29,619 nucleotides of DNA, from IMG/VR virus record IMGVR_UViG_3300042876_000208, positions 64,001 to 93,619 of that record; one strand, given 5' to 3'. The notes below the pieces were generated by a model, which saw only the letters and a list, made by a program, of their open reading frames with translations, was not told where the DNA came from and ran no database searches. The DNA is from a virus. Taxonomy: Duplodnaviria; Heunggongvirae; Uroviricota; Caudoviricetes. Positions 15,316-25,780 of the stretch are shown here, one piece after another; positions within the stretch are counted from its first letter, which is position 1, and each line of letters begins with the position of its first letter. A program made the translations under genes and the position numbers.

Positions 15316-15535
15316 AAATAAGAATGGTGAATGGATTTGCTCTTATTGTGAAAAGGTGTATGTCCACCCACAAGATGCCGATGTTTGTAGGGAGAGCCAC
15401 GATTTAATTTTGGTTCAATTAACAAAAGAGGAATTGAATAGAATAGTACAATTTCTATTTACGAAAGATGACGATTTATTGAGTGAACAATTAGTAAAAC
15501 GATTACAAAAATATTTGAAAAATCGAGCAATTTGA
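15305..15535 (+). CDS. Small Zn-finger-like protein
   Basis: WICSYCEKVY...CRESH. Confidence 0.6.
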   Translation: MASKNKNGEWICSYCEKVYVHPQDADVCRESHDLILVQLTKEELNRIVQFLFTKDDDLLSEQLVKRLQKYLKNRAI

Positions 15536-15539
15536 CCCC

Positions 15540-15568
15540 TTGACAAATAAAAAGAGTTGTGCTAAAAT
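15540..15568 (+). promoter_or_regulatory. Sigma70-type promoter heading the tRNA array
   Basis: TTGACA-17 nt-TAAAAT with TGn. Confidence 0.85.
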
Positions 15569-15629
15569 AGACCCATCGTTAAATTTAAGCACAAAATTGA
15601 AAAATGTGTTAGAATTAATTTAACAAAAT

Positions 15630-15701
15630 GGCCCGTTAGTTCAAAAGTAGAGCGTCTCTCTGTCGAAGAGAAGGTTAGGATAGCATAATTCCTACGGGTC
15701 G
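15630..15701 (+). tRNA. tRNA-Asp(GTC), atypical elbow
   Basis: Acceptor ggcccgt/acgggtc; anticodon arm tctct-ctGTCga-agaga; G73; T-loop AGCATAA. Confidence 0.8.
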
Positions 15702-15774
15702 CCTGTCTTAAAGGTTGCGTTTGTCGTAAAACAAACTAAGCGTGTGACCTTCAACGGGGTGCAATGCCCCAAGC

Positions 15775-15848
15775 GTTCCTATACGATAATCGGACTAGTC
15801 ATCCACACTCTCAATGTGGCAATGCGGGTTCAAGCCCCGCTGGGAACA
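15775..15848 (+). tRNA. tRNA-Glu(CTC)
   Basis: gttccta/tgggaac; ccaca-ctCTCaa-tgtgg; TTCAAGC T-loop. Confidence 0.9.
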
Positions 15849-15854
15849 CTACAT

Positions 15855-15927
15855 GCCCTCATAACACAACGGACAAGTGTAGAAGACTCTTAATCTTTTA
15901 ATCAGGGTTCGATTCCCTGTGAAGGCA
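15855..15927 (+). tRNA. tRNA-Lys(CTT)
   Basis: gccctca/tgaaggc; gaaga-ctCTTaa-tcttt; TTCGATT. Confidence 0.9.
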
Positions 15928-15928
15928 C

Positions 15929-15991
15929 TAGACTACTTACAGCAAATATAAAACAATTGACAGTTAATCAATCAACGTTTTATGTAGTCTA
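15929..15991 (+). ncRNA. ACAGCAA stem motif, copy 1
   Basis: tagactac/gtagtcta stem; ACAGCAA at 15939-15945; inner hairpin. Confidence 0.7.
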
Positions 15992-15995
15992 ATTT

Positions 15996-16067
15996 CGGGA
16001 AGTAGGGTAACGGTAGCCCACTACGTTTGGGACGTAGCCAGTGAAAGTTCAAGTCTTTCTTTCCCGA
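15996..16067 (+). tRNA. tRNA-Pro(TGG)
   Basis: cgggaag/tttcccg; ctacg-ttTGGga-cgtag; TTCAAGT. Confidence 0.9.
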
Positions 16068-16073
16068 CAACAT

Positions 16074-16146
16074 CATGTGGTAGCCCAATTGGTAAAGGCG
16101 TTGCGTTGTGGCCGCAAATATCTAGGTTCGACTCCTAGCCACCTGA
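16074..16146 (+). tRNA. tRNA-His(GTG)
   Basis: catgtgg/ccacctg; ttgcg-ttGTGgc-cgcaa; T at -1 opposite A73. Confidence 0.85.
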
Positions 16147-16152
16147 CTAGCG

Positions 16153-16303
16153 TACTATTTCCCGAAAGGAATAGTATCTATAAAGTCGATAGTTAGCGGA
16201 TATACAGAAAGTCCTATTATAATGGCTCTCTACTGTGCAGAGGAACTAACTACGTGACATATAGAGTTTTAAAACGTACTCGTGTCTTACGTTAAAGACA
16301 CCA
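16153..16303 (+). ncRNA. Unassigned multi-hairpin structured spacer RNA
   Basis: Long interrupted helix 16178-16196/16246-16264 plus flanking hairpins; no ORF support. Confidence 0.5.
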
Positions 16304-16306
16304 TAT

Positions 16307-16377
16307 GCGTGTATAGTGAAAAAGTATCACACCATCCTTCCAAGTTGGAATTGAGATTGCGAAATTCTCTACCCGCA
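16307..16377 (+). tRNA. tRNA-Gly(TCC), atypical elbow
   Basis: gcgtgta/tacccgc; ccatc-ctTCCaa-gttgg; T-loop TGCGAAA. Confidence 0.8.
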
Positions 16378-16382
16378 CCTAT

Positions 16383-16473
16383 GGATGTTAGCCGGATATT
16401 GGTTGAGCCGGAGCGGTCTGTAAAATCGTATGGCCTGGAAGAAGGCATATTAGTTCAATTCTAATAACATCCA
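16383..16473 (+). tRNA. tRNA-Tyr(GTA)
   Basis: ggatgtt/aacatcc; gcggt-ctGTAaa-atcgt; long variable arm. Confidence 0.9.
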
Positions 16474-16481
16474 CAAAACTT

Positions 16482-16552
16482 GGGGTACGTAATGTAACGG
16501 GAACATATCTTCCTTGCAAGAAGAACTAGGGGTTCGACTCCCACGCGCTCCA
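16482..16552 (+). tRNA. tRNA-Ala(TGC), irregular acceptor/T stem
   Basis: G3.U70 present; tcttc-ctTGCaa-gaaga; best fit is an 8-bp acceptor with a 3-4 bp T stem. Confidence 0.75.
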
Positions 16553-16603
16553 CTAGTAATACAACATATTCGGGTTCTATCTAGGAGAAAGGAAAGGTTT
16601 AAA

Positions 16604-16834
16604 GTGAAACTGTTTACGGATAAGGAATTTGGTTTGATTTTGGAAGCACTCGGCACTACTAAGGATAAGGCTACCGAAAGGGTAACTGCGGCAAAGAGTG
16701 ACCTTGAAACTTAGGTTACATCACTTACCGACAATATTAAAGAGGTCAGTGCAAGACTAACCGAACTTAGTAAGGAACAGAAAGAAAAGAGCAAGACTCT
16801 TAAGTTACTTGGTGGTGTACTAGCTAGACTATAA
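16604..16834 (+). pseudogene. 76-aa coiled-coil ORF interrupted by an in-frame TAG (16712-16714)
   Basis: Strong RBS then GTG; heptad-like sequence continues 39 codons past the TAG to TAA. Confidence 0.6.
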
Positions 16835-16845
16835 AAATTAAATAA

Positions 16846-16903
16846 AAAGATTACCTACAGCAACTATAAAAAATCAATTGGATGATAATTAAAGGTAATC
16901 TTT
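16846..16903 (+). ncRNA. ACAGCAA stem motif, copy 2
   Basis: aaagattacct/aggtaatcttt 11-bp stem; ACAGCAA at 16857-16863. Confidence 0.7.
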
Positions 16904-16905
16904 AT

Positions 16906-16980
16906 GTCCTTGTGGCGAAATGGCTCACGCACTACGCTTAGGACGTAGACAACCTGGAGGTTCGACTCCTCTCAAGGACA
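16906..16980 (+). tRNA. tRNA-Leu(TAG), short variable loop
   Basis: gtccttg/caaggac; ctacg-ctTAGga-cgtag; TTCGACT. Confidence 0.85.
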
Positions 16981-16984
16981 CTAA

Positions 16985-17046
16985 GCCAGCATCTAGAATG
17001 GTTCGATTCCATTCCCCTAGGGATGATGTAATGGAAACATACTGGC
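16985..17046 (+). ncRNA. Circularly permuted tRNA-like RNA (YrlA-like core)
   Basis: Order: gccag, T arm (aatgg-TTCGATT-ccatt), short hairpin, TG, D arm (atgt-aatGGaa-acat), A, ctggc. Confidence 0.7.
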
Positions 17047-17049
17047 AAT

Positions 17050-17120
17050 GACAACTTAACCAAGCGGCTAGGTAACTGTCTGCAAAACAGTTTAAGCGAG
17101 TCCGATTCTCGCAGTTGTCT
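17050..17120 (+). tRNA. tRNA-Cys(GCA)
   Basis: gacaact/agttgtc; actgt-ctGCAaa-acagt; U73. Confidence 0.9.
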
Positions 17121-17126
17121 CAATAC

Positions 17127-17164
17127 ACGCTCATCTCCTAGTGGTAAAGGAACTAATTTATGGA
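17127..17164 (+). pseudogene. 5' tRNA half remnant fused to the HNH start
   Basis: D-arm-like tcct-agtggtaa-agga, then ctaat-ttATGga; no 3' half. Confidence 0.45.
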
Positions 17165-17678
17165 AGAAATTTGGAAAGATGTTATCGGCTACGAAACATA
17201 TTATAAAGTGAGTACACGAGGAAGAGTGTTTAGCTATCGGTCTAATAGAATAGTTAAGCCCTCAAAAATAGGCTCAGGCTACTTATGTATATCTACTAGA
17301 TTAAATGGAAGAGCATCCCCCTGCCTAGCCTTAAGAATTCATCGTTTAGTAGCTATCGCTTTTTTGGACAATCCAGATAATTTACCAGAAGTAAATCATA
17401 TAGATGGTATAAAAACAAATAATGATATTACTAATCTAGAATGGTGTACACATCAAGAAAATGTTATACATGCCAGTAAGTTAGGGCTACTTCATATTAC
17501 ACGCGGCGTTGATTCTCCAGTGGCTAAACTCTTTAAAGAAGAAGTTGAACAGATAAGAGATTTGTATGCTACAAAAGCGTTTACACAATTAGAATTAAGT
17601 TTAATGTATGATGTATCAAGACCAACAATTTCAAGAGTAATAAATAATAAAGTATACTCCTTTAGCTCAGAAGTGTAG
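17160..17678 (+). CDS. NUMOD4-HNH homing endonuclease with C-terminal HTH
   Basis: EIWKDVIGYETYYKVSTRGRV; HRLVAIAF...VNHIDGIKTNN...NLEWCT; HTH-like tail. Confidence 0.9.
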   Translation: MEEIWKDVIGYETYYKVSTRGRVFSYRSNRIVKPSKIGSGYLCISTRLNGRASPCLALRIHRLVAIAFLDNPDNLPEVNHIDGIKTNNDITNLEWCTHQENVIHASKLGLLHITRGVDSPVAKLFKEEVEQIRDLYATKAFTQLELSLMYDVSRPTISRVINNKVYSFSSEV

Positions 17679-17729
17679 AGCGTTCGGTTTACATCCGAAA
17701 GGTCGGGATTGCAAAATTCTCAAGGAGTA
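17656..17729 (+). tRNA. tRNA-Val(TAC), atypical elbow
   Basis: actcctt/aaggagt; ttcgg-ttTACat-ccgaa; T-loop TGCAAAA; overlaps the HNH 3' end. Confidence 0.8.
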
Positions 17730-17733
17730 CTTT

Positions 17734-17807
17734 GTACCTTTCGTGATTACGGTTTAACACGCCATGCTGAAGACATGGAAAACTCAGTTCGACACTGAGA
17801 GGGTACA
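17734..17807 (+). tRNA. tRNA-Phe(GAA)
   Basis: gtacctt/agggtac; ccatg-ctGAAga-catgg; TTCGACA. Confidence 0.9.
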
Positions 17808-17873
17808 CTGTCTCGTTGTTCCCGAAGACACGCAAGCTATGGGATACTAAACTCTTTTTAGTAATCGGGACAT

Positions 17874-17900
17874 GCAGAAGTAGCTCAACTGGTCAGAGCT
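17874..17900 (+). pseudogene. 5' tRNA half (acceptor strand + D arm) truncated by an antisense HNH gene
   Basis: gcagaag-ta-gctc-aactggtca-gagc, then unrelated sequence. Confidence 0.7.
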
Positions 17901-18348
17901 TTATTAATCCGGCATGAATTTCTCTGTGACAGTTTGAACAAACTAAGATACATTTATCCAGTTCTATTTTTACTTTATTCCACGCTTTGTTAGTATTAGT
18001 TGAAATACTAAAATCTTTTGTATTTGGGTTCTTATGATGAAATTCAAGAGCCTCAACACACTTGGAATAACCACAAACACAACACTTACCGCCACAATAT
18101 TCTACTGCTTTTTGTTTTGTTCTTTTTCTAAATGATTTTATTCTAGGGTAGTCTTTTATTGGTGTATCTCTACAAGAATCACATAGTTTTCTGTATCGTT
18201 CTACTGGTTTTCCACAAATATGACAACCTCTTTCAACATCTATCTTTGCAACATGTCTAATATACAACTTGTTGTTTAAAATTGCAGAACAACTTCTAGA
18301 GCAAAACTTTGGGTTTTTTGTTTCTTTGCCACAATTTAAACACTTCAT
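17893..18348 (-). CDS. HNH endonuclease with N-terminal Zn fingers, antisense to the array
   Basis: MKCLNCGK...FCSRSC; CCVCGY...LEFHH...LDKCILVCSNCHREIH; start moved to ATG 18348 after aaaggag. Confidence 0.85.
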   Translation of the reverse strand: MKCLNCGKETKNPKFCSRSCSAILNNKLYIRHVAKIDVERGCHICGKPVERYRKLCDSCRDTPIKDYPRIKSFRKRTKQKAVEYCGGKCCVCGYSKCVEALEFHHKNPNTKDFSISTNTNKAWNKVKIELDKCILVCSNCHREIHAGLIKL

Positions 18349-18361
18349 TATTATCTCCTTT

Positions 18362-18437
18362 GGGTAGGTACTATCAATTGGTTCAGATGAGAATCCTGAT
18401 AAGGTTCTGTGTGCAGGTTCGATTCCTGCTCTACCCA
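18362..18437 (+). tRNA. tRNA-Ile(GAT)
   Basis: gggtagg/tctaccc; gaatc-ctGATaa-ggttc; TTCGATT. Confidence 0.85.
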
Positions 18438-18466
18438 CTCTATATACAGTAATTATATCATAAATT

Positions 18467-18528
18467 GCAGAAATATGTATCAAATGGTGATACACGAAAG
18501 GTTGGGAGTCCGAGTCTCTCTTTCCGCA
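18467..18528 (+). ncRNA. Anticodon-less tRNA-like RNA
   Basis: gcagaaa/tttccgc acceptor; 6-bp D hairpin with GG loop; cgaaag in place of the anticodon arm; T arm gggag-TCCGAGT-ctctc. Confidence 0.65.
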
Positions 18529-18627
18529 CAAGGTTACAAGCCTTACTACACTTAAGCCATTGTGTAGCCCCTAATAAGACAGCCGGTGCATCGTTAACGG
18601 TAGAAGGGCATCTAATCCATCGGCCAA

Positions 18628-18704
18628 GCTTGTGTGATGCAAATATGGCAGACATGTCTTGCTCAAAACGAGATTTTTTGAAGGTTCGAGTCCTTTCACA
18701 AGCA
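18628..18704 (+). tRNA. tRNA-Leu(CAA), short variable loop
   Basis: gcttgtg/cacaagc; tcttg-ctCAAaa-cgaga; TTCGAGT. Confidence 0.85.
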
Positions 18705-18717
18705 CTAGGAGAACATT

Positions 18718-19461
18718 ATGTTAATTAGTATTAGTGCAAGAGTTACCGTACCCGCTCTTAGAATAAGAGCTTATGCTGGTATTGAGAATGAAATTACTGG
18801 AATGTTATTCTATTCAAACCCCGTAGAAATACGTGAGGTTATCCCCGTAGGAACTGAGTTTTGGGGTAGAGTAGAAAGAGGTTGGATTTGTTTAAAGCAA
18901 GGTATCTTTACTTATACAAATCTAAGAAACTTTTCTTGGTATGTTGGTTCTACAAATTTATATAGAGTTGCCGCAGAAAGATGGCCAGAACTACACGGAC
19001 AGACTAGACCCCCGAACGGTGGCCCATTAGTCCAGGTAGCAAGTGATTCCATCAAAGGTGGCAAGTATATTTACCCACTAGATAAAGTGGCACAGGATTA
19101 TATTAGAATGTGGAACAACGCTCGTGGTTATGCTAAGATTGTAGCACCCGACGTCGGCCCCTCGCAAGGGATAGACCCATTAACCGGAAGACTTAAATGG
19201 AATTACTTAGTCTGGCCTTCCGTAACTAATAATCCTAATACTCTAAAGGTTGTGGAAACATTAGGTGATTGGTGTAGATTTGAAACCATTCCTTACGTGT
19301 TTCCCGTAGCAAAGGATATTAATCCTACAGCTACACCCTGGTTATTTCATAAGATGTGTGATAATATGGGTAATCCATTTATAGTAGATGGTGCTTATAT
19401 AATTCTACCTATATTTGGAAAGGCATGTTGGGTTCCAAGTAGAGCTTTAATAAAGTTATGA
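18718..19461 (+). CDS. Protein with an N-terminal SH3b-like (cell-wall-binding) domain
   Basis: VTVPALRIRAYAG...FWGRVERGWICL resembles bacterial SH3; remainder unrecognised. Confidence 0.55.
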   Translation: MLISISARVTVPALRIRAYAGIENEITGMLFYSNPVEIREVIPVGTEFWGRVERGWICLKQGIFTYTNLRNFSWYVGSTNLYRVAAERWPELHGQTRPPNGGPLVQVASDSIKGGKYIYPLDKVAQDYIRMWNNARGYAKIVAPDVGPSQGIDPLTGRLKWNYLVWPSVTNNPNTLKVVETLGDWCRFETIPYVFPVAKDINPTATPWLFHKMCDNMGNPFIVDGAYIILPIFGKACWVPSRALIKL

Positions 19462-19545
19462 GAGGTAGCCTGAGAGGTCAGAATTGGTCTTGAAAACCAT
19501 GCCATCCAGTGCCCCTGGGTGAGGGTTCGACTCCTTTACCTCCCG
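19460..19545 (+). tRNA. tRNA-Ser(TGA), weak D arm
   Basis: ttggt-ctTGAaa-accat; long variable arm; TTCGACT; G73. Confidence 0.7.
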
Positions 19546-19549
19546 CTAT

Positions 19550-19636
19550 TGAGAATTGACAGAGTGGCAATGTGTACGTTTGCTAAACGTAAGCCATCCT
19601 TGAGTGGATGCACAGGTTCAATCCCTGTATTCTCAG
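19550..19636 (+). tRNA. tRNA-Ser(GCT)
   Basis: tgagaat/attctca; tacgt-ttGCTaa-acgta; long variable arm; G73. Confidence 0.85.
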
Positions 19637-19641
19637 CTTAT

Positions 19642-19714
19642 TGACGAGTCGTTTAAATGGATAGACATCGCACTCTGGATGCGAGAAGTGTAGGTTCGAC
19701 TCCTACCTCGTCAG
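19642..19714 (+). tRNA. tRNA-Gln(CTG)
   Basis: tgacgag/ctcgtca; tcgca-ctCTGga-tgcga; TTCGACT. Confidence 0.9.
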
Positions 19715-19735
19715 CTAGTAAGAAAGGAGATAATT

Positions 19736-19918
19736 ATGGGAAGTATAGATATATTTCTGATTGTTTCTATAATTGCCATAATCATAGCGATTATTGCTAC
19801 AATAATTATGGCTATAGCATTGATACGGTTCATTAAAAGAATGAACGAACTAGACAAACAATTTGAGCAAACGATTAACACCCTTTTAGAGTATAAAAGG
19901 GGTCTTGACAAAAAATAA
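19736..19918 (+). CDS. Small membrane protein (60 aa)
   Basis: agaaaggag RBS; one long TM segment then a charged tail. Confidence 0.7.
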   Translation: MGSIDIFLIVSIIAIIIAIIATIIMAIALIRFIKRMNELDKQFEQTINTLLEYKRGLDKK

Positions 19919-19933
19919 GACCTATGCTATAAT
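19905..19933 (+). promoter_or_regulatory. Perfect sigma70-type promoter upstream of the tRNA-like RNA and DUF2828 gene
   Basis: TTGACA-17 nt-TATAAT with TGn; ggtctt/aagacc inverted repeat overlaps the -35 box. Confidence 0.9.
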
Positions 19934-19937
19934 ACAC

Positions 19938-20065
19938 GAGTGGTTAAGCAACGCCGAGGTCGCAAGGTGCGTATAAAATAAAACTAATCTTGGGATTAGA
20001 CACAGCCACTCATATAAAACTTCTTCTGACTAAGAAAATTGTGGGTTCAATTCCCTCCCTCGGCT
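19938..20065 (+). ncRNA. tRNA-like RNA with the D arm replaced by ~60 nt and crossing helices
   Basis: gccgagg/cctcggc acceptor; T arm with TTCAATT; anticodon-like arm; gagtggt/gccactc crossing helix. Confidence 0.6.
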
Positions 20066-20071
20066 CTAAAC

Positions 20072-20127
20072 TAGATTGCATACAGCAACTATAATTCTTA
20101 CTGCAAATAGAGAGAAAATGCAATCTA
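20072..20127 (+). ncRNA. ACAGCAA stem motif, copy 3 (upstream of DUF2828)
   Basis: tagattgcat/atgcaatcta 10-bp stem; ACAGCAA at 20082-20088. Confidence 0.7.
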
Positions 20128-20170
20128 TGTTATTTCATTCAAATCAAGGATTAAGAAAAGGAGTATTGAA

Positions 20171-21589
20171 ATGACAAGGCTATTTAAGGCTCTAACAACA
20201 AATGACACAGTAACAACAAACGGAATGGTAACTAATTCCACATCCTCAAACTACCTATTGGATATGTTTTTCAGGATGGGTGGTTCAAGACAGATGGACG
20301 AGTCATCAATCCAGACCATGTTCCTAAACGCTTATCATGAGAACCCAGAATATGCTCTAAAGGCATTGTTCTACAATCGTGATATTCGTGGTGGGCAGGG
20401 TGAAAGACGCTCGTTTAGATTGATGTTTCAGGCTCTATGTATTGTAGACCCATCAACTGCAATTAGATTGATTAACTATGTTCCTGAGTATGGTAGATGG
20501 GATGACCTATTCGTAGCATTTGGAACAGATGTTTGGGAGTCTGTAACTGATTTAATCTTAAGCTCTCTAAAGCGTGGTGACAAGCTTTGTGCAAAGTGGA
20601 TGCCTAGACCTAACAAGGCAAAGGCTTACATTGCGAAGGATTTGGCAAAGGCTTGGGGTCTTTCACTAGATGACTATAGAGACTTAATTGTAAAGCATAC
20701 CGATGTAGTAGAAACTCTCATGTGCAAGAGAGAGTGGACTGCAATCAATTACAATCATGTTCCATCAAAGGCTAGCCATCAGTATAGAGGTGCATACCTA
20801 AAGCATGACGAGGATAGATACCGCGAGTGGCTGGGTAATCTAACTAAGGTTGATGAAAAGGGTAAGCCACTAGCTAAGGTAAATGCGGGTGCAATTTTCC
20901 CACATGATGTAATCAAGCCTTACTTTGGTTATGGCAACACAGATACTGATACATTGATTGAGGCCCAGTGGAAGGCACTTCCTGAGTATGCACCAAAGGG
21001 TAATAAGGTAATTTCTGTTTGTGACGTATCCGGTTCTATGAATGGTCTACCTTTGCTAGTATGTTTAGCATTGGGTATCTACACCGCAGAGAGAAACAAT
21101 GGTATCTTTAAGAATGGTTTCATTACATTCTCAGAGAGACCAGCTCTACAGATTCTTAAGGGTAAGACCTTGAGAGACAAGGTAAATGAACTACATAGAG
21201 CGCATTGGGATATGAACACAAATCTAGAGGCAGTATTTGAACTACTACTTACTTCCGCTAAGAGAGATAATCTATCCGAAGAGGATATGCCAGATACCAT
21301 CCTAATCCTATCCGATATGCAGTTTGATGCTTGTGTAAGAAATAAGAGCAACAGTGCTATTGATATGATTAAGAGAATGTATTCAGAAGCAGGATACAAT
21401 GTTCCTAATGTAATCTTTTGGAACTTGAATACAGGTAGTGGTATTCCAGTAAAGTATGATACTAGCGGCACAGCCGTTGTATCCGGGTTTAGTCCATCTA
21501 TTCTAAAGAGCATTATAAGTGGTAATATTAACCCAATTGCTCAGATGATGGAAGTTCTAAACTCAGAACGCTACTCAAAGATTAACTAA
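20171..21589 (+). CDS. DUF2828-family protein, Ro60/TROVE-like N-terminus + vWA domain
   Basis: RDIRGGQGER, VPEYGRWDDL, LCAKWMPR, VNAGAIFPHDV, VCDVSGSM (MIDAS DxSxS), NTNLEAVF, ILSDMQFD, IFWNL and SGFSP motifs. Confidence 0.9.
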   Translation: MTRLFKALTTNDTVTTNGMVTNSTSSNYLLDMFFRMGGSRQMDESSIQTMFLNAYHENPEYALKALFYNRDIRGGQGERRSFRLMFQALCIVDPSTAIRLINYVPEYGRWDDLFVAFGTDVWESVTDLILSSLKRGDKLCAKWMPRPNKAKAYIAKDLAKAWGLSLDDYRDLIVKHTDVVETLMCKREWTAINYNHVPSKASHQYRGAYLKHDEDRYREWLGNLTKVDEKGKPLAKVNAGAIFPHDVIKPYFGYGNTDTDTLIEAQWKALPEYAPKGNKVISVCDVSGSMNGLPLLVCLALGIYTAERNNGIFKNGFITFSERPALQILKGKTLRDKVNELHRAHWDMNTNLEAVFELLLTSAKRDNLSEEDMPDTILILSDMQFDACVRNKSNSAIDMIKRMYSEAGYNVPNVIFWNLNTGSGIPVKYDTSGTAVVSGFSPSILKSIISGNINPIAQMMEVLNSERYSKIN

Positions 21590-21590
21590 A

Positions 21591-21658
21591 AGAATGGTGT
21601 GGTCAGGGAAAGACCTTAAATCGTTGTTCAAGTGAGCCCCAAGATAACAGCCATTTCT
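21591..21658 (+). ncRNA. Structured element directly downstream of DUF2828
   Basis: agaatgg(t)/(g)ccatttct outer helix; ggtc-agggaaa-gacc hairpin. Confidence 0.45.
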
Positions 21659-21662
21659 AACT

Positions 21663-21878
21663 ATGAATAATTATTTGCAGTGGCAATGTTCAGCATCCGG
21701 TATAGAGTTTAATCCTAACGGATACATCACCGCAACCGGAATTTCAAATTTATATGAACCACAAGAGTATATACAAACTAGAGCTACCGTTGTTTTACAT
21801 AAGGTTAAATGTCCTTATTGCGGAAGCTATGGTGAAAGATTTAGTAATTGTACTCATTGTGGTGGTGCAATAGATTAA
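21663..21878 (+). CDS. Small protein with C-terminal double CxxC Zn ribbon
   Basis: KCPYCGS...NCTHCGG. Confidence 0.65.
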   Translation: MNNYLQWQCSASGIEFNPNGYITATGISNLYEPQEYIQTRATVVLHKVKCPYCGSYGERFSNCTHCGGAID

Positions 21879-21881
21879 CAC

Positions 21882-21933
21882 AGACTACATACAGCAAACA
21901 TACTTTGGGTAGCCACCCGCTTGGCAGTAGTCT
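21882..21933 (+). ncRNA. ACAGCAA stem motif, copy 4
   Basis: agactac/gtagtct stem; ACAGCAA at 21891-21897; inner gggt-agcc-accc hairpin. Confidence 0.7.
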
Positions 21934-21939
21934 TTATAT

Positions 21940-22010
21940 AGGTTGTTAGTATAGTGGTATTATAAACGTCTCCAAAACGTAGGACAGGAGTTCGATTCTT
22001 CTACGACCTG
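21940..22010 (+). tRNA. tRNA-Trp(CCA)
   Basis: aggttgt/acgacct; aacgt-ctCCAaa-acgta; G73. Confidence 0.9.
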
Positions 22011-22027
22011 CTAAAAAGGAATTAATT

Positions 22028-22156
22028 ATGTCTGAACTTCTACCATATGTAGCCGTAGCAATTATAGCTTTAATAATCACTGCCTATTTTGGATATAGTG
22101 TAACTATCGGATTAATTATAGCTATGATATTACAAAGTTTAGGCATAACGTTTTAA
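22028..22156 (+). CDS. 42-aa membrane peptide (MSELLPYVAVAIIALIITAYFG...)
   Basis: Hand-translated; aaaagga RBS; hydrophobic throughout. Confidence 0.55.
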   Translation: MSELLPYVAVAIIALIITAYFGYSVTIGLIIAMILQSLGITF

Positions 22157-22161
22157 ATCAA

Positions 22162-22235
22162 TGCGCGGTGGACTGGAGCGGTTCCAGCACGTCCCCATAA
22201 GTCGTATCACGAGAGTCCGAATCTCTCCCGCGCAA
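22162..22235 (+). tRNA. tRNA-Met(CAT), atypical (C33, extended D stem)
   Basis: tgcgcgg/ccgcgca; loop ccCATaa; TCCGAAT T-loop; lacks the three G-C pairs of initiator tRNA. Confidence 0.7.
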
Positions 22236-22299
22236 CTAATAGCTAAGTATATATAACGATTGGCTAACTACCACAACAACGTATACTTAGCTGTGCTAT

Positions 22300-22370
22300 T
22301 CCCGAATCGTACAATGGCAGTACGCGAAGCTGTTAACTTCGTTATCGTGGTTCGAGTCCATGTTTGGGAG
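22300..22370 (+). tRNA. tRNA-Asn(GTT)
   Basis: tcccgaa/tttggga; cgaag-ctGTTaa-cttcg; G73. Confidence 0.9.
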
Positions 22371-22374
22371 CTAT

Positions 22375-22450
22375 GCGACTTTAAACCCTCACGCTTCTAA
22401 CGTGCTGGAAGGTTAACGGATACATGCAGGTTCAAATCCTGTAAGTCGCG
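22375..22450 (+). ncRNA. Topologically rearranged tRNA-Arg(TCT)-like RNA
   Basis: Perfect acceptor gcgactt/aagtcgc and T arm; anticodon hairpin cacg-ctTCTaa-cgtg nested inside an aacc/ggtt stem; D-loop-like AACGGATA lies 3' of it. Confidence 0.65.
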
Positions 22451-22470
22451 CCTAGTAGAGAGGATACAAA

Positions 22471-22686
22471 ATGAACCACAAAAGAGAAGTAACATCTTAT
22501 ACCGAACGTTATTACACCATTGTAAAGTGGAATAATGAACTAGTAGGATATGAAGAAATAGAAATATTGGATAGTGAATTAAGTGAGGTTTCCGCAGTTC
22601 ATTATATGTATTCAAAATATGGCTTTGGAAAAGAATATAAAGTACGTCAAGTATTTATAACTAAGCTATATTATGATATAGAATAA
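22471..22686 (+). CDS. Hypothetical protein (71 aa)
   Basis: ORF with a gagagga RBS. Confidence 0.65.
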   Translation: MNHKREVTSYTERYYTIVKWNNELVGYEEIEILDSELSEVSAVHYMYSKYGFGKEYKVRQVFITKLYYDIE

Positions 22687-22691
22687 ATCAT

Positions 22692-22763
22692 GCCTTGTAA
22701 ACATATATAGTGATGTACCTGTCCTGTAAACAGGATAACTGGACGCAAGTTCCAGACGAGGCT
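22692..22763 (+). tRNA. tRNA-Thr(TGT), atypical elbow, C33
   Basis: gccttgt/acgaggc; cctgt-ccTGTaa-acagg; T-loop CGCAAGT. Confidence 0.7.
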
Positions 22764-22768
22764 CTAAA

Positions 22769-22863
22769 AGACTTGTAACAGAAAACTCAAATTAACCACA
22801 CAACACAAGAGTCTATAACTACGTTGTAGGTTCTTAGTTGTGTGATGACACAATATCAAGTCT
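22769..22863 (+). ncRNA. ACAGAAA variant of the stem motif, copy 5, long inner hairpin
   Basis: agacttg/caagtct stem; ACAGAAA at 22778-22784; inner cacacaac/gttgtgtg and ctataac/gttgtag helices. Confidence 0.6.
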
Positions 22864-22868
22864 AATTC

Positions 22869-22941
22869 GCACTCGTAGCTCAATGGTCAGAGCAACTGTC
22901 CTATTAACAGCAAGTTGGGGGTTCGACTCCCTCGGAGTGCA
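22869..22941 (+). tRNA. tRNA with TAT anticodon (Ile AUA reader or pseudo-tRNA), Thr-like acceptor
   Basis: gcactc/gagtgc; canonical D and T arms; loop ccTATta lacks U33 and purine 37. Confidence 0.6.
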
Positions 22942-22945
22942 CAAG

Positions 22946-22996
22946 GTTAAAGCCCCATAGAGTTTTTTCGCCTCCTTTCTACTATGGGGCTTTAAC
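22946..22996 (+). ncRNA. 15-bp hairpin with an anti-Shine-Dalgarno loop
   Basis: gttaaagccccatag/ctatggggctttaac; loop contains CCTCCTTTCTA. Confidence 0.65.
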
Positions 22997-22999
22997 TAC

Positions 23000-23028
23000 T
23001 TGACTTTTTGAACAAAAGGATTTATAAT
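23000..23028 (+). promoter_or_regulatory. Sigma70-type promoter after the array
   Basis: TTGACT-17 nt-TATAAT. Confidence 0.8.
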
Positions 23029-23239
23029 GTATAAAATAAAATGTCCCTTTTGCCTAGGTTGCATGGATTTGGTTTACACCCCACAAATGGAACAAGTATG
23101 GCATTGTTGGTTGTGTAAAACTTGGTACGTAAATGAGTTGGAAAATGGTTTGAGAAAAGTTGAAAATCCATTACTGGAGAATATAGATAACAAGCCAAAT
23201 TCCTAAAGGTAAGAATAAAAAAGAAAGGTACAAAAAATC

Positions 23240-23620
23240 ATGGAGACATTTCTGAAGAACATTGGGTTCTTTAGATTGGCAATAGAGCAATCAAAGAAGT
23301 CTACACATAAGGTAAAGGTTGGGGCAGTTCTAGCTAACAAGCGCCCTGTGGCAAGAGGTTATAACAAGATTAAATCTCATCCGATTTGGGCTAATCCATC
23401 TAAGCATGTAAAGATTTCCATTCATGCTGAAATAGATTGTCTTATGGATAGCTCAGCTAGTGAGGGTGATACAATGTATGTCTATCGTGAAGATAGTCTA
23501 GGTTGGCCAGCTCTAGCAAGACCTTGTGTTGATTGTATGAAAGTATTGAAAGAACGCGGGATTAGAAAGGTCATCTACAGTATAGCACATCCTCCATACT
23601 ATAAAGAGGAGTTCATATAA
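23240..23620 (+). CDS. Zn-dependent cytidine/dCMP deaminase-superfamily protein
   Basis: KVGAVL, ARGYN, HAEID and ARPCVDC motifs. Confidence 0.85.
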   Translation: METFLKNIGFFRLAIEQSKKSTHKVKVGAVLANKRPVARGYNKIKSHPIWANPSKHVKISIHAEIDCLMDSSASEGDTMYVYREDSLGWPALARPCVDCMKVLKERGIRKVIYSIAHPPYYKEEFI

Positions 23621-23630
23621 GGAGAAAGAA

Positions 23631-23891
23631 ATGGAAAAGATAACTATTGATGTCGCGTTTGAAATTAATGAAAAAGTAAAAGTAGGAAATGCTATAGGTA
23701 CAGTATACGGATACTATGTTAATAACGATTTTATTGAATATCATGTATCTATATGGGATGGCTCTCGAAGAGAAACCTTCTACTTTAGGGAAAGTGAACT
23801 TGAGAAATTTCATGAACCTAAACCTATAGCATTTGCCAAAGAAACACCAGTCCAGGAGATTAAAAATGACACTAAAGAAAGTAGGAAATAA
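23631..23891 (+). CDS. Hypothetical protein
   Basis: 86 aa ORF with an aaggag RBS. Confidence 0.6.
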   Translation: MEKITIDVAFEINEKVKVGNAIGTVYGYYVNNDFIEYHVSIWDGSRRETFYFRESELEKFHEPKPIAFAKETPVQEIKNDTKESRK

Positions 23892-24048
23892 ATATAAGGT
23901 TGTTAGCAAAACAACTGGTAAAGATTTGTCAAAGCCTATGAGTAAAGAGATGGCTTTGCACCGTGAAAAACAAATTCAAATGTTCAAAAATTTAGATAAG
24001 TATAAGAAAGACCATAACGGCAAAACCTTTCTTAAAAAGAGAAAGTAG
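23866..24048 (+). CDS. Small basic protein (60 aa)
   Basis: Start moved to ATG 23866 (MTLKKVGNKYKVV) after aggag. Confidence 0.6.
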   Translation: MTLKKVGNKYKVVSKTTGKDLSKPMSKEMALHREKQIQMFKNLDKYKKDHNGKTFLKKRK

Positions 24049-24051
24049 TTT

Positions 24052-24594
24052 ATGGAAACACCCCAGCAGAAATACGCAAGAGTTCATAAAGATGAATTAA
24101 AACTATATAGAAAGCAGTGGAGAGACTCTCATAAGGAATCTACAAAAGAATATTTGAAGAGCTACTATATAGAGAATAAAGAAAAGATACTTAAACGTGT
24201 GTCGGATAGATACTATGAGCATCATATAAATGAAGTTCCATCTTGTGAATTTAATCTTGAATTCGTATTAAATGAGCAAAGAAACTTGAGAAAAGTAAAA
24301 CAAGCTTATAAACGGGCTGGCGGTGGTGATTTTTCATTAAAAGATTGGTATTCTTTACTAGAGGAATTTGATTACAAGTGTGCATATTGTAAGGAAAGAA
24401 CTAATCATTTGTCTCCTGACCACGTTATTCCACTTTCTCGTGGTGGAGAAAATACATTAAATAATATTCTTCCCGCTTGCACAACATGTAATACATCAAA
24501 AAATAAAAAGTTGCTGGAAGAATGGATTCCTAATCTGAATGATAAGATGAACGAATATTTTGATGCACATCCTATTATTTGTGAGGAAACATGA
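24052..24594 (+). CDS. HNH endonuclease (McrA-like)
   Basis: CAYC...DHVIPLSRGGENTLNNILPACTTCNTSK. Confidence 0.85.
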   Translation: METPQQKYARVHKDELKLYRKQWRDSHKESTKEYLKSYYIENKEKILKRVSDRYYEHHINEVPSCEFNLEFVLNEQRNLRKVKQAYKRAGGGDFSLKDWYSLLEEFDYKCAYCKERTNHLSPDHVIPLSRGGENTLNNILPACTTCNTSKNKKLLEEWIPNLNDKMNEYFDAHPIICEET

Positions 24595-24770
24595 AGATTG
24601 AAAAAGCACTTAAGCGTGATAACAAGCGACTAAGACGAAAGTATGGTCATGTTGTAGACGGTAGAAGTGTAAAATTGCTACATGATATTCAACGAAAAAA
24701 ATCAATTGAAATAAAGAAAGAACGAGAAGAACATATGAAAATTATGGAGACTCTTTCAAATGCAAGCTGA
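24591..24770 (+). CDS. Small basic protein (59 aa, MKIEKALKRDNKRLRRKYGH...)
   Basis: Hand-translated; ATGA overlap with the HNH stop. Confidence 0.55.
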   Translation: MKIEKALKRDNKRLRRKYGHVVDGRSVKLLHDIQRKKSIEIKKEREEHMKIMETLSNAS

Positions 24771-24981
24771 TTATAGATGCAGTGTTTGTGATACAATGTT
24801 TTCACATAACGAGGCATATGAGATTTCATCCGATGAAATCCTTCGTTATGAATGTCCTAAATGTGGTAGTAAGTTAACAGCCCCAATATTAGAGAAAGGA
24901 GTAATTGAGAATGTACCTGGAACTATTGGAAAGTCTAATAGAACAGGACTTCGGGTATACACACACAGGAAATTGGGGTAA
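24760..24981 (+). CDS. Zn-ribbon protein (73 aa)
   Basis: YRCSVCD...YECPKCGS. Confidence 0.6.
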   Translation: MQADYRCSVCDTMFSHNEAYEISSDEILRYECPKCGSKLTAPILEKGVIENVPGTIGKSNRTGLRVYTHRKLG

Positions 24982-25780
24982 ATCACAAGAGCATAGCTCA
25001 TTAGTAGTAGATAGACAAAAGGAACTCTGGTTCTGGAATTCGAGAGACATGAGAGGTAATGTAAAAGATTATCTCTTGCTCATAAGAGGTTACTCGGAGG
25101 CTAAGGCAACAGAGTTCCTAAAGTCTAAATCAAATACTAGAATACTTGAGCTACCGGAAAGTGATGAGGCGTCAGTTCCTTATGAGAAACTAGTCGAATT
25201 TCTGTGGCTTAATGGAAAGAACAATCGAGACTATTGGTATAGACGTGGATTGAATGACAATGTAATTGATAGATTTAAACTTGGATTTTCAGGTGAATTC
25301 TTCACAATCCCCATCTATGTTAATGGTGAATTTAAAAACTTTCAATGTAGAAAAGATATACCGGAAAAGAAAATCAGACCTTGGTATAGACACTCAGGCC
25401 CACTCATGTTTAACTCGGATATATTACAATTTGTGAACAAGGTATTTATAACCGAGGGGCCAGTAGATGCAATACTATTAACACAACTAGGCTACACCGC
25501 AGTTAGTCACACGGCGGGAGCTACCGGATGGAACAATGAGTGGTTTAAATATTTCTTTAAACAAAAAGAGATTATTTACATTGCAGATAATGACCAAGCC
25601 GGAATAGCCGGAGCCAAGCGAGTAGCCAAGTGTCTAGGTGAAACTAGAGTAAGAATACTAAGATTTGCAGATAAAGCTGAAAAGTATGATACCGTTGATT
25701 TCTTTAGGGACGGTGGTACTAAACAAGAATTTGAGCAAAGACTTAGTTCAGATTTAAAGTACTCTTTCGAGGGCATATAG
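24911..25780 (+). CDS. DnaG-like DNA primase (Toprim)
   Basis: RRGL...IDRFKLG; VFITEGPVDA; YIADNDQAGIAGA Toprim motifs; ATG 24911 after gaaaggag. Confidence 0.85.
   Translation: MYLELLESLIEQDFGYTHTGNWGKSQEHSSLVVDRQKELWFWNSRDMRGNVKDYLLLIRGYSEAKATEFLKSKSNTRILELPESDEASVPYEKLVEFLWLNGKNNRDYWYRRGLNDNVIDRFKLGFSGEFFTIPIYVNGEFKNFQCRKDIPEKKIRPWYRHSGPLMFNSDILQFVNKVFITEGPVDAILLTQLGYTAVSHTAGATGWNNEWFKYFFKQKEIIYIADNDQAGIAGAKRVAKCLGETRVRILRFADKAEKYDTVDFFRDGGTKQEFEQRLSSDLKYSFEGI

What the first reader, a model, noticed from the sequence alone, without database searches (positions are those of the whole stretch)
19938..20065. Promoter-proximal ~128-nt tRNA-like RNA with crossing helices, first in the DUF2828 transcription unit
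It begins at the expected +1 of the consensus promoter at 19905-19933. The acceptor gccgagg (19953-59)/cctcggc (20058-64) is perfect, with a T arm, an anticodon-like arm (ctGACta) and the same NCTA 3' end as many tRNAs here. The D arm is replaced by ~60 nt containing a ctaatc-ttgg-gattag hairpin. The leader gagtggt (19938-44) pairs with gccactc (20005-11), which crosses the acceptor helix, giving a pseudoknot or a two-state switch. Size and position next to a Ro60-like gene match where Y RNAs are found. A cis-regulatory switch for DUF2828 is the alternative.
Basis: partly seen in the sequence, partly recalled or inferred. Interest (0 to 1): 0.7.

Follow-up and report, generated by a model that had tools for sequence, protein, structure and literature searches.

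The report
tRNA-shaped Y-like RNA beside phage Ro60
This is a real gene for a tRNA-shaped small RNA with no anticodon arm; in its place it carries the short "handle" that marks the likely partner RNAs of the phage's Ro60-like protein, though this copy is a worn variant and the proposed switch is unsupported.

Summary
A 12/12 promoter (19905-19933) precedes a 7-bp acceptor stem, a T arm with one U-U mismatch, a capped hairpin and an N-CTA tail.

Two details are wrong. A small D arm survives (CGCA-AGG-TGCG), and the anticodon arm is what has been replaced. The "anticodon-like" hairpin has a 6-nt loop and is homologous to the interior of a neighbouring small RNA of a related phage.

The hairpin plus ACA-CAGCCA is the "helix + 2-3 nt + CAGCAA" handle. 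That handle marks four stem-loop RNAs in this tRNA array and about 150 more flanking DUF2828 genes on the gene's strand. My model of the DUF2828 protein folds like Ro60.

I found seven other tRNA-framed handle RNAs near DUF2828 genes, with compensatory changes in every helix. The element is therefore a tRNA-bodied, Y-RNA-like gene with a topology opposite to YrlA.

This copy is the most degenerate. Its motif variant CAGCCA is not used by canonical handles, and tRNA models do not detect it.

The leader helix is near chance (p about 0.05) and is not conserved, so a switch or pseudoknot is unsupported.

Earlier notes of this scan describe the same family and the same tRNA-bodied type on other DNA. 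I found no paper describing either.

The parts
19905..19933 (+). Sigma-70-type promoter, TTGACA-17 nt-TATAAT with an extended -10 TG
   Evidence: 12 of 12 matches, the best site in 15400-23300. The expected +1 is about 19939-19941 (inference from spacing).
19939..19952 (+).
   Evidence: One search gives the sequence; the 8-bp complementarity to 20004-11 arises in 4-6% of controls; it is not conserved in the seven other members.
19953..19959 (+). Acceptor stem, 5' strand GCCGAGG
   Evidence: 7/7 Watson-Crick pairs with 20058-64. All 7 pairs covary across the 8 family members, and 56/56 cells are paired.
19961..19971 (+). Reduced D arm, CGCA-AGG-TGCG. U8 lies at 19960 and GG is in the loop.
   Evidence: All 8 members have a hairpin with GG in its loop at this position. 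L010 and L131a have full D arms.
19984..19999 (+). Capped handle helix, CTAATC-TTGG-GATTAG
   Evidence: The equivalent hairpin lies 2-3 nt before the motif in all 8 members. All are fully paired, with compensatory changes.
20000..20008 (+). Spacer ACA plus handle motif CAGCCA, a variant of the family's CAGCAA
   Evidence: CAGCAA shows the handle architecture at 159 sites against 26 at control offsets. CAGCCA shows it at 8 against 9, so it is not used in canonical handles.
20021..20036 (+).
   Evidence: Window 20001-20040 aligns to the interior of the canonical handle RNA at L002 1347-1384. None of 2000 shuffles reaches that score.
20041..20057 (+). T arm, GTGGG-TTCAATT-CCCTC, with T54-T55-C56 and A58 present and one U-U mismatch
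   Evidence: 39 of 40 T-stem cells are paired in the family, and the one mismatch is in this copy.
20058..20068 (+). Acceptor 3' strand CCTCGGC, discriminator T20065 and CTA trailer
   Evidence: the tail is TCTA in 5 of 8 members; the same N-CTA context follows 10 of the 20 tRNAs in the window.
20073..20126 (+). Neighbouring canonical handle RNA, AGATTGC-ATA-CAGCAAC...GCAATCT
   Evidence: Rfam's best, though weak, hit is Dicty_Class_I_RNA. Covariation is counted.
20171..21589 (+). DUF2828/DUF7788 gene of 472 aa, Ro60-like fold (HEAT ring plus vWA)
   Evidence: Pfam. phrog_850 'RNA-binding protein'. AlphaFold model with pLDDT 82.6. Foldseek matches to 9kop, 9l5y and 1yvr at E 6e-8 to 6e-7 and TM 0.56-0.58.

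Best explanation
The element is a gene for a tRNA-framed member of the 'handle' RNA family that accompanies DUF2828, the Ro60-like protein of phages.

Expression and processing (inferred). It is transcribed from the strong promoter at 19905 together with a canonical handle RNA (20073-20126) and the DUF2828 mRNA. The precursor is probably cut by RNase P at G19953. It is probably trimmed after U20065 and CCA-tailed like the neighbouring tRNAs. The product would be about 113-116 nt.

Fold. The RNA has a tRNA body: an acceptor stem stacked on the T arm and a small D arm whose GG can meet the T loop. The anticodon arm is replaced by a capped helix (19984-99), the single-stranded ACA-CAGCCA, and one more hairpin.

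The handle. In the ordinary family members the same 'helix strand, 2-3 nt, CAGCAA' unit is formed by the paired 5' and 3' ends. Here the ends lie at the acceptor stem and the handle helix is closed by a tetraloop. This is the reverse of the YrlA arrangement.

Function (inferred from gene linkage only). The handle docks DUF2828. The RNA would then act like a Y RNA that presents a tRNA-shaped body to enzymes that recognise tRNA.

Shown: the helices, their covariation in relatives, the shared module, the gene linkage and the Ro60-like fold. Inferred: processing, binding and function.
For: STRUCTURE AND FAMILY
- I found seven other distinct RNAs with the same order of parts: acceptor, D hairpin with GG, capped helix, 2-3 nt, CAGCAA (CCGCAA in L118), T arm, acceptor, usually a TCTA tail. 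They are L131 1573-1697, L010 2597-2712, L002 1107-1202, L131 1699-1795, L100 1023-1115, L103 935-1028 and L118 4467-4560.
- In my structural table the acceptor is paired in 56/56 cells and all 7 pairs covary. The T stem is paired in 39/40 cells. The handle helix is fully paired in all eight.
- On the five short forms aligned by Infernal, 99.1% of cells pair and 15 of 22 pairs show compensatory changes. None of 500 shuffles reaches this, and slid controls give about 45% paired.
- L010's copy scores 53 bits on Rfam tRNA, with a 52-nt insert inside the anticodon stem.

THE HANDLE
- Of 276 CAGCAA sites on the gene strand, 96 have a 7-nt segment ending exactly 3 nt upstream that finds a downstream partner. 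Other offsets give 3-55 (38 and 55 at the neighbouring offsets 2 and 4, at most 26 elsewhere), and the opposite strand 14 of 196.
- Strict handles number 157 on the gene strand against 14 opposite. 55 end within 300 nt upstream of DUF2828 and 35 start within 300 nt downstream.
- In this 93.6-kb genome, all four TACAGCAA sites on the + strand are handle RNAs inside the tRNA array.
- In Felix O1 and Listeria A511, the best hits of handle model R2 in the whole genomes lie within 500 nt of the DUF2828 gene, on its strand. T5 and Bxz1 lack DUF2828 and have no hit. T4 also lacks it and has only one marginal hit (E 0.05).

LINKS TO THIS COPY
- Window 20001-20040 is homologous to the interior of a canonical handle RNA of the closest relative.
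- DUF2828 folds like Ro60.
Against: - No binding or expression data exist. The phage is known only from a metagenome.
- This copy deviates from the family at the most conserved point. CAGCCA is not enriched among canonical handles.
- It has the only T-stem mismatch and the smallest D arm of the family.
- It scores no better than ordinary tRNAs with the family model R1 (24.5 bits, E 0.12). Rfam tRNA does not detect it at all.
- No relative is closer than 55% protein identity, so this copy has no orthologue to test its own conservation.
- The structural alignment of the eight members is mine. The Infernal alignment is fitted to the model, which favours the structure.
Confidence: 0.6

Rival explanations
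1. It is a decaying or non-functional copy of a tRNA-framed handle RNA. The architecture is inherited, but the handle no longer binds its protein.
For: - The CAGCCA variant is not enriched in canonical handles (8 sites against 9 at control offsets, compared with 159 against 26 for CAGCAA).
- It has the only T-stem mismatch in the family.
- Its D arm is shrunk to 4 bp with a 3-nt loop.
- tRNA-model scores fall from L010 (53 bits) to L002 (25 bits) to no hit for the window copy.
Against: - It sits directly behind the best promoter of the region.
- The acceptor stem and the handle helix are both perfect.
- U8, GG, TTC and A58 are all kept.
- The tail matches the tRNA processing context.
Confidence: 0.2
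2. It serves only as tRNA-like punctuation. It would be an RNase P / 3'-processing site that frees the downstream handle RNA and gives the DUF2828 mRNA a defined 5' end, with no role for the excised RNA.
For: - It is the first element of the transcription unit.
- Its acceptor/T-arm minihelix and N-CTA tail match those of the neighbouring tRNAs.
Against: - A plain tRNA or hairpin would be enough for that job.
- The conserved capped helix plus CAGCAA module, with compensatory changes in eight members, is not explained.
- In relatives the element is often far from the gene.
Confidence: 0.1
3. It is a cis-acting two-state switch or pseudoknot. The leader (19938-45) pairs with 20004-11 and so masks the handle motif or competes with the tRNA fold, which would control DUF2828 expression or gate particle assembly until the leader is removed.
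For: - The 8-bp complementarity exists, and its forced fold is only about 1-3 kcal/mol weaker than the tRNA-like fold.
- The A-to-C deviation of the motif (CAGCAA to CAGCCA) is what extends this helix from 4 to 8 bp (read from the sequence).
Against: - Such a helix occurs in 4-6% of shuffled or random leaders.
- 1-2 bp probably lie upstream of +1.
- The other seven members show no comparable leader helix at this site, and most directly follow another tRNA.
- The ribosome-binding site is more than 150 nt away, with another RNA gene in between.
Confidence: 0.07
4. It is a decoding tRNA with an intron or a large insertion.
For: - It has an acceptor stem, a T arm, a D-like hairpin and a tRNA-type tail.
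- L010's copy passes the Rfam tRNA threshold.
Against: - No 7-nt anticodon loop exists in any member.
- ARAGORN and Rfam reject the window copy.
- The insert is far too small for a group I intron. That such introns are about 200 nt or longer rests on general knowledge.
- The insert is a conserved module shared with non-tRNA hairpin RNAs.
Confidence: 0.03

Closest known systems
YrlA, the tRNA-like Y RNA bound by bacterial and mycobacteriophage Ro60/Rsr (Rfam RF02553; Chen et al. 2014, PMC4201824)
   Same: - It is a small RNA encoded beside a Ro60-fold protein gene on the same strand.
- It combines a protein-docking module (a short purine-rich motif next to a helix strand) with a tRNA-like body that has D- and T-arm signatures.
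- It is a likely substrate of tRNA-processing enzymes.
   Different: - Topology is reversed. YrlA has its ends in the Ro-binding stem and a capped acceptor stem. Here the ends are at the acceptor stem and the docking helix is capped.
- The motif is CAGC(A/C)A, not GNCGAA(N)G.
- The partner is DUF2828, which has no sequence match to TROVE or to solved Ro60 chains.
- Rfam gives no YrlA hit.
Canonical 'helix + NNN + CAGCAA' handle RNAs flanking DUF2828 genes. No paper was found, and earlier notes of this scan flag the family in many genomes. Examples here are window 15930-15990, 16848-16901, 20073-20126 and 21882-21933.
   Same: - The same module: a helix strand with GATTR-like sequence, a 2-3-nt spacer and the motif.
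- The same strand and neighbourhood.
- The stretch after the motif is homologous to the interior of L002's canonical copy.
   Different: - The handle helix is a capped hairpin whose partner strand lies upstream, instead of being formed by the RNA's two ends.
- It is embedded in a tRNA frame.
- This copy has CAGCCA.
Class I RNAs of dictyostelid amoebae (Rfam RF01414; Kjellin et al. 2021, PMC7919456)
   Same: - The neighbouring canonical handle RNAs share the design: a short terminal stem, then (C)UUACAGCAA next to the 5' strand, and a length of about 55-60 nt.
- RF01414 is their best Rfam family. L011 4428-4490 scores 36.1 bits (E 0.0026) and L010 2536-2591 scores 26.8 bits.
   Different: - The tRNA-framed element itself gives no RF01414 hit.
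- All phage hits lie below the gathering score of 41.5.
- The known direct binder of Class I RNA is an RRM protein, and homology is unproven.
Engineered 'tRNA scaffold' RNAs, in which the anticodon arm of a tRNA is replaced by a cargo RNA. This comparison rests on my own knowledge and was not checked in a paper here.
   Same: An intact acceptor/T/D body carries a foreign structured module in place of the anticodon stem-loop. The expected benefits are precise end processing and stability.
   Different: This one is natural and conserved, and its cargo is a protein-docking handle.

Membership tests
tRNA (Rfam RF00005 / ARAGORN) | Score at or above the Rfam gathering threshold (29 bits), or a call by a tRNA finder | tested here: not met
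   There is no RF00005 hit even at E up to 10 in 19850-20200 and no ARAGORN call. The homologues score 53.1 bits (L010) and 25.1 bits (L002).
tRNA (Rfam RF00005 / ARAGORN) | Anticodon stem with a 7-nt loop | tested here: not met
   The only candidate hairpin (20021-36) has a 6-nt loop. In L010 the anticodon loop is replaced by a 52-nt insert.
tRNA (Rfam RF00005 / ARAGORN) | 7-bp acceptor stem stacked on a T arm with a TTCRA loop, plus U8 and D-loop GG | tested here: met
   There is one U-U mismatch in the T stem.
YrlA-type Y RNA (RF02553) | Covariance-model match | tested here: not met
   No hit at E up to 10.
YrlA-type Y RNA (RF02553) | GNCGAA(N)G motif near the 5' end, in a stem formed by the two RNA ends, with a capped acceptor-like stem (Chen et al. 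2014, PMC4201824, read) | tested here: not met
   No such motif is present in 19938-20068. The ends lie at the acceptor stem.
YrlA-type Y RNA (RF02553) | Encoded within a few kb of a Ro60-fold protein gene, on the same strand | tested here: met
   It lies 105 nt upstream of DUF2828 on the same strand. The Ro60-like fold is shown.
YrlA-type Y RNA (RF02553) | Bound by the Ro60-type protein | not testable with these tools
   This needs an EMSA or a pull-down.
CAGCAA-handle RNAs of DUF2828 loci (working definition) | A base-paired strand ending 2-3 nt before the motif | tested here: met
   GATTAG (19994-99) is paired with CTAATC, followed by ACA and then the motif.
CAGCAA-handle RNAs of DUF2828 loci (working definition) | The motif CAGCAA | tested here: inconclusive
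   This copy has CAGCCA. That variant is not enriched among canonical handles. Six of the seven other tRNA-framed members have CAGCAA and one has CCGCAA.
CAGCAA-handle RNAs of DUF2828 loci (working definition) | Same strand as a DUF2828 gene and close to it | tested here: met
CAGCAA-handle RNAs of DUF2828 loci (working definition) | [quoted passage not shown] | tested here: not met
   The helix is capped by TTGG. This defines the tRNA-framed subtype.

The most novel reading that the evidence does not exclude
The element is a working tRNA-bodied Y-like RNA. After tRNA-type processing it docks the Ro60-like DUF2828 protein through its internal handle. It then presents an anticodon-less tRNA body to tRNA-recognising factors, such as processing or repair enzymes or host tRNA-cleaving defence nucleases. 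The phage-encoded particle would thus be tied to tRNA surveillance or counter-defence. In the boldest form, the leader masks the variant handle until RNase P removes it, so that particle assembly is gated by processing.
Probability: 0.3. Interest if true: 0.8.

Novelty: new variant of a known kind. Interest (0 to 1): 0.6.

Why it matters
Phage proteins of the DUF2828 family (phrog_850) occur in at least 711 phage records of many hosts. One of them, Bas63 gp130, was reported to counter the Ppl defence system. Its RNA partners are unknown, and the authors only guessed that some neighbouring 'tRNA genes' might be Y RNAs (PMC11482910).

The tRNA-framed handle RNAs give concrete candidates for those partners. 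They show a second way to join a Ro60-type docking site to a tRNA body, opposite to YrlA. They also supply direct tests: mutants of the helix and the motif, and processing assays.

They show as well that tRNA finders miss such genes or, as in L010, could annotate them as tRNAs.

The neighbouring canonical handle RNAs resemble the unexplained Class I RNAs of social amoebae. This offers a possible route to that open problem, but it is only a lead.

Tried and rejected
- blastn of the region against 50,697 phage records found no match.
- Rfam at E up to 10 gave only noise for the element.
- A profile of DUF2828 against PDB sequences gave nothing, so the Ro60 link needed a fold search.
- MAFFT alignments of the tRNA-framed RNAs mis-set the long forms. 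I segmented them by script instead.
- Model R1, built from the short forms, finds L103 (62.8 bits) and L118 (48.8 bits). It scores the window copy (24.5), L010 (22.7) and L131a (24.2) no higher than ordinary tRNAs, so it cannot by itself assign the long forms.
- In Felix O1 and A511, R1 hits only ordinary tRNAs.
- L011 2059-2193 is a promoter-proximal 135-nt tRNA-like RNA. It has no handle motif, so I did not count it as a member.
- No relative above 55% protein identity turned up in the viral or metagenome collections. The conservation of the leader in true orthologues therefore could not be tested.
- Avesson et al. 2011 is not held in the library. I could not establish the identity of the Class I RNA pull-down protein DDB_G0281243.
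- Literature searches for DUF2828, ACAGCAA + phage, and Ro60-like + phage + tRNA gave nothing relevant.

Full report
WHAT IS IN THE SEQUENCE

The window is the last 29.6 kb of a 93.6-kb phage record with terminal repeats. It holds a + strand array of 17 to 20 tRNA genes. A 472-aa gene lies inside the array at 20171-21589 and matches Pfam DUF2828 and DUF7788 and phrog_850.

The promoter at 19905-19933 is a 12/12 match with an extended -10. It is the best site in the 8 kb scanned. The expected start is near 19939-41.

From 19953 the sequence reads as follows:
- acceptor GCCGAGG, then U8
- a small hairpin CGCA-AGG-TGCG
- an A-rich linker
- the hairpin CTAATC-TTGG-GATTAG
- ACA-CAGCCA
- an A-rich stretch
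- the hairpin TTCTT-CTGACT-AAGAA
- AATT
- the T arm GTGGG-TTCAATT-CCCTC
- acceptor CCTCGGC, then T and CTA

Two details are not:
- The anticodon-like loop has six bases.
- A reduced D arm is present.

ARAGORN and Rfam do not call the element, whether as tRNA, YrlA or any other family up to E = 10. Thermodynamics alone do not mark it out: z is -0.37 with the leader and -1.7 without it.

THE SURROUNDINGS EXPLAIN IT

Just downstream, at 20073-20126, lies a stem-loop AGATTGC-ATA-CAGCAAC...GCAATCT. I saw the same design upstream of DUF2828 homologues in the first related loci that I read. The design is a 7-bp closing stem, three bases and then CAGCAA.

Across 89 loci, 96 of 276 CAGCAA sites on the gene strand have a 7-mer ending exactly 3 nt upstream that finds a downstream complement. 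Other offsets give 3-55 (38 and 55 at the neighbouring offsets 2 and 4, at most 26 elsewhere). The opposite strand gives 14 of 196.

Strict copies number 157 on the gene strand against 14 on the other. 55 of them end within 300 nt upstream of the DUF2828 start and 35 begin within 300 nt of its end.

In this genome, all four TACAGCAA sites on the + strand are such RNAs, and all lie in the tRNA array. Thirteen copies show 6 of 7 stem pairs with compensatory changes. These copies were picked for pairing, so only the compensatory changes count as evidence.

A covariance model of these RNAs (R2) places its best hits in the whole genomes of Salmonella phage Felix O1 and Listeria phage A511 within 500 nt of their DUF2828 genes, on the gene strand. 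T5 and Bxz1 lack DUF2828 and have no hit. T4 also lacks it and has only one marginal hit at E 0.05.

THE PROTEIN

A model built from a 31-sequence alignment has mean pLDDT 82.6. It matches Ro60 structures over its full length at TM 0.56-0.58 and E 6e-8 to 6e-7. The matches are Thermus phage phiLo Ro60 (9kop, 9l5y) and Xenopus Ro60 (1yvr, 2i91). vWA domains follow further down the list. Sequence profiles do not see this relationship.

THE ELEMENT BELONGS TO A RECURRING SUBTYPE

In the element, GATTAG-ACA-CAGCCA has the same layout as the canonical AGATTRC-NTA-CAGCAA. The difference is that the partner strand CTAATC lies upstream, so the helix is capped.

I searched 136 loci for tRNA frames, meaning a T arm abutting a 7-bp acceptor stem, that enclose the motif. 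This gave seven other distinct RNAs:
- Long forms: L131 1573-1697 and L010 2597-2712.
- Short forms: L002 1107-1202 (identical in L092-94), L131 1699-1795, L100 1023-1115, L103 935-1028 and L118 4467-4560.

All have the same order of parts:
- acceptor
- D hairpin with GG in the loop
- capped helix of 6-8 bp
- 2-3 nt
- CAGCAA (CCGCAA in L118)
- T arm and acceptor
- usually a TCTA tail

Pairing across the eight members:
- The acceptor is paired in 56/56 cells, and every pair covaries.
- The T stem is paired in 39/40 cells. The exception is this window's U-U.
- The capped helix is always paired, as in TAATCA/TGATTA, TAATCC/GGATTG, TAACCA/TGGTTA, TAAGTA/TACTTA and CTAATC/GATTAG.

On the five short forms aligned by Infernal, 99.1% of cells pair and 15 of 22 pairs have compensatory changes. 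None of 500 shuffles reaches this, and slid controls give about 45%. That alignment is fitted to the model.

Rfam's tRNA model aligns L010's copy at 53 bits, with acceptor, D, variable and T regions intact and 52 nt inserted inside the anticodon stem. The module therefore replaces the anticodon arm.

Window 20001-20040 covers the motif and the 'anticodon-like' hairpin. It aligns to the interior of the DUF2828-proximal canonical RNA of L002, and none of 2000 shuffles reaches that score. That hairpin therefore comes from a handle RNA, not from a tRNA.

HOW IT PROBABLY WORKS

Known Y RNAs dock Ro60 through a short motif on the 5' strand of a helix. YrlA adds a tRNA-like body (Chen et al. 2014, PMC4201824). 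Thermus phage Ro60 binds phage RNAs that carry a CGAA motif (PMC12135203).

By analogy, and from the tight gene linkage, the helix plus CAGCAA is the likely docking site of DUF2828. The element would then be a Y-like RNA with a conventional tRNA topology. It would be cut by RNase P, trimmed and CCA-tailed like its neighbours. Ten of the 20 tRNAs share its N-CTA context. Binding, processing and function are all inferred.

WHAT WEAKENS THIS COPY

- CAGCCA is not a variant used by canonical handles (8 sites against 9 at control offsets, compared with 159 against 26 for CAGCAA).
- It has the only T-stem mismatch and the smallest D arm.
- Models cannot tell it from ordinary tRNAs.
- A decayed copy is therefore a serious rival.

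THE SWITCH OR PSEUDOKNOT

- The leader helix (19938-45 with 20004-11) appears in 4-6% of shuffled or random leaders.
- It partly precedes the likely +1.
- Its forced fold is slightly weaker than the tRNA-like fold.
- It has no counterpart in the other seven members.
- One point stays open: the C that departs from CAGCAA is exactly what extends this helix from 4 to 8 bp. With no close orthologue available, I cannot settle whether that is chance.

NOVELTY

I found no paper on RNA partners of DUF2828 or on this motif. A preprint only speculates that some tRNA genes near Bas63 gp130 are Y RNAs.

Earlier notes of this scan describe the handle family in many other genomes, and tRNA bodies carrying it in at least three. 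My analysis reached the same reading on independent loci.

The neighbouring canonical RNAs also hit Rfam's Dictyostelium Class I RNA model, at up to 36.1 bits and E 0.0026, below the gathering score. I record that as a lead, not a finding.

Noticed in passing
window 15930-15990, 16848-16901, 20073-20126, 21882-21933: These are four canonical handle RNAs (7-bp closing stem, NTA, CAGCAA, 52-61 nt) interleaved with the tRNAs. They account for every TACAGCAA on the + strand of the 93.6-kb genome.
   Followed up: partly
L011 4428-4490; L010 2536-2591; L002 1340-1397; window 20074-20127: The best Rfam family for the canonical handle RNAs is Dicty_Class_I_RNA (RF01414), at 36.1, 26.8, 23.5 and 15.9 bits against a gathering score of 41.5. 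The best E is 0.0026 over 44 kb. One Class I RNA pull-down protein, DDB_G0281243, has no known function. Whether it is DUF2828-like was not checked.
   Followed up: partly
L012 2943-2995; L010 2917-2993: The 3' strand of the last handle RNA before DUF2828 overlaps the gene's start codon in L012 (GATTCAT...ATGAGTC). In L010 it overlaps the ribosome-binding site (AGGAATC). This hints that the protein may repress its own translation.
   Followed up: no
L011 1988-2193: A second consensus promoter is followed by a 135-nt tRNA-like RNA (acceptor TGTACTG/CAGTACA, T arm TCAGG-TTCAAAT-CCTGA). It has no CAGCAA motif and its nature is unknown.
   Followed up: partly
L024 6250-6393; L026 6006-6134 and 6739-6858: These are tRNA-frame RNAs (AGTCCTG...CAGGACT, a class II-like D region and a perfect T arm) with 50-70 extra bases and no handle motif. 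They were not examined.
   Followed up: no
NC_005282 (Felix O1) 23872-23938 and 24039-24096; NC_009811 (A511) 25408-25463 and 25497-25552: Cultivable phages carry handle-RNA candidates right beside their DUF2828 genes (22118-23524 + and 23748-25211 -). They are usable for experiments.
   Followed up: partly
window 19736-19918; L010 2229-2385: A small single-pass membrane ORF (60 aa here, about 52 aa in L010) lies just upstream of the RNA cluster in both phages. It has no family match.
   Followed up: no
window 17160-17678 and 24052-24594: There are HNH homing-endonuclease-type ORFs. One (NUMOD4 + HNH_3) lies inside the tRNA array.
   Followed up: no
window 21663-21878: A 71-aa ORF with two CxxC pairs (zinc-ribbon-like) lies directly after DUF2828 and before a handle RNA. 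It has no family match.
   Followed up: no
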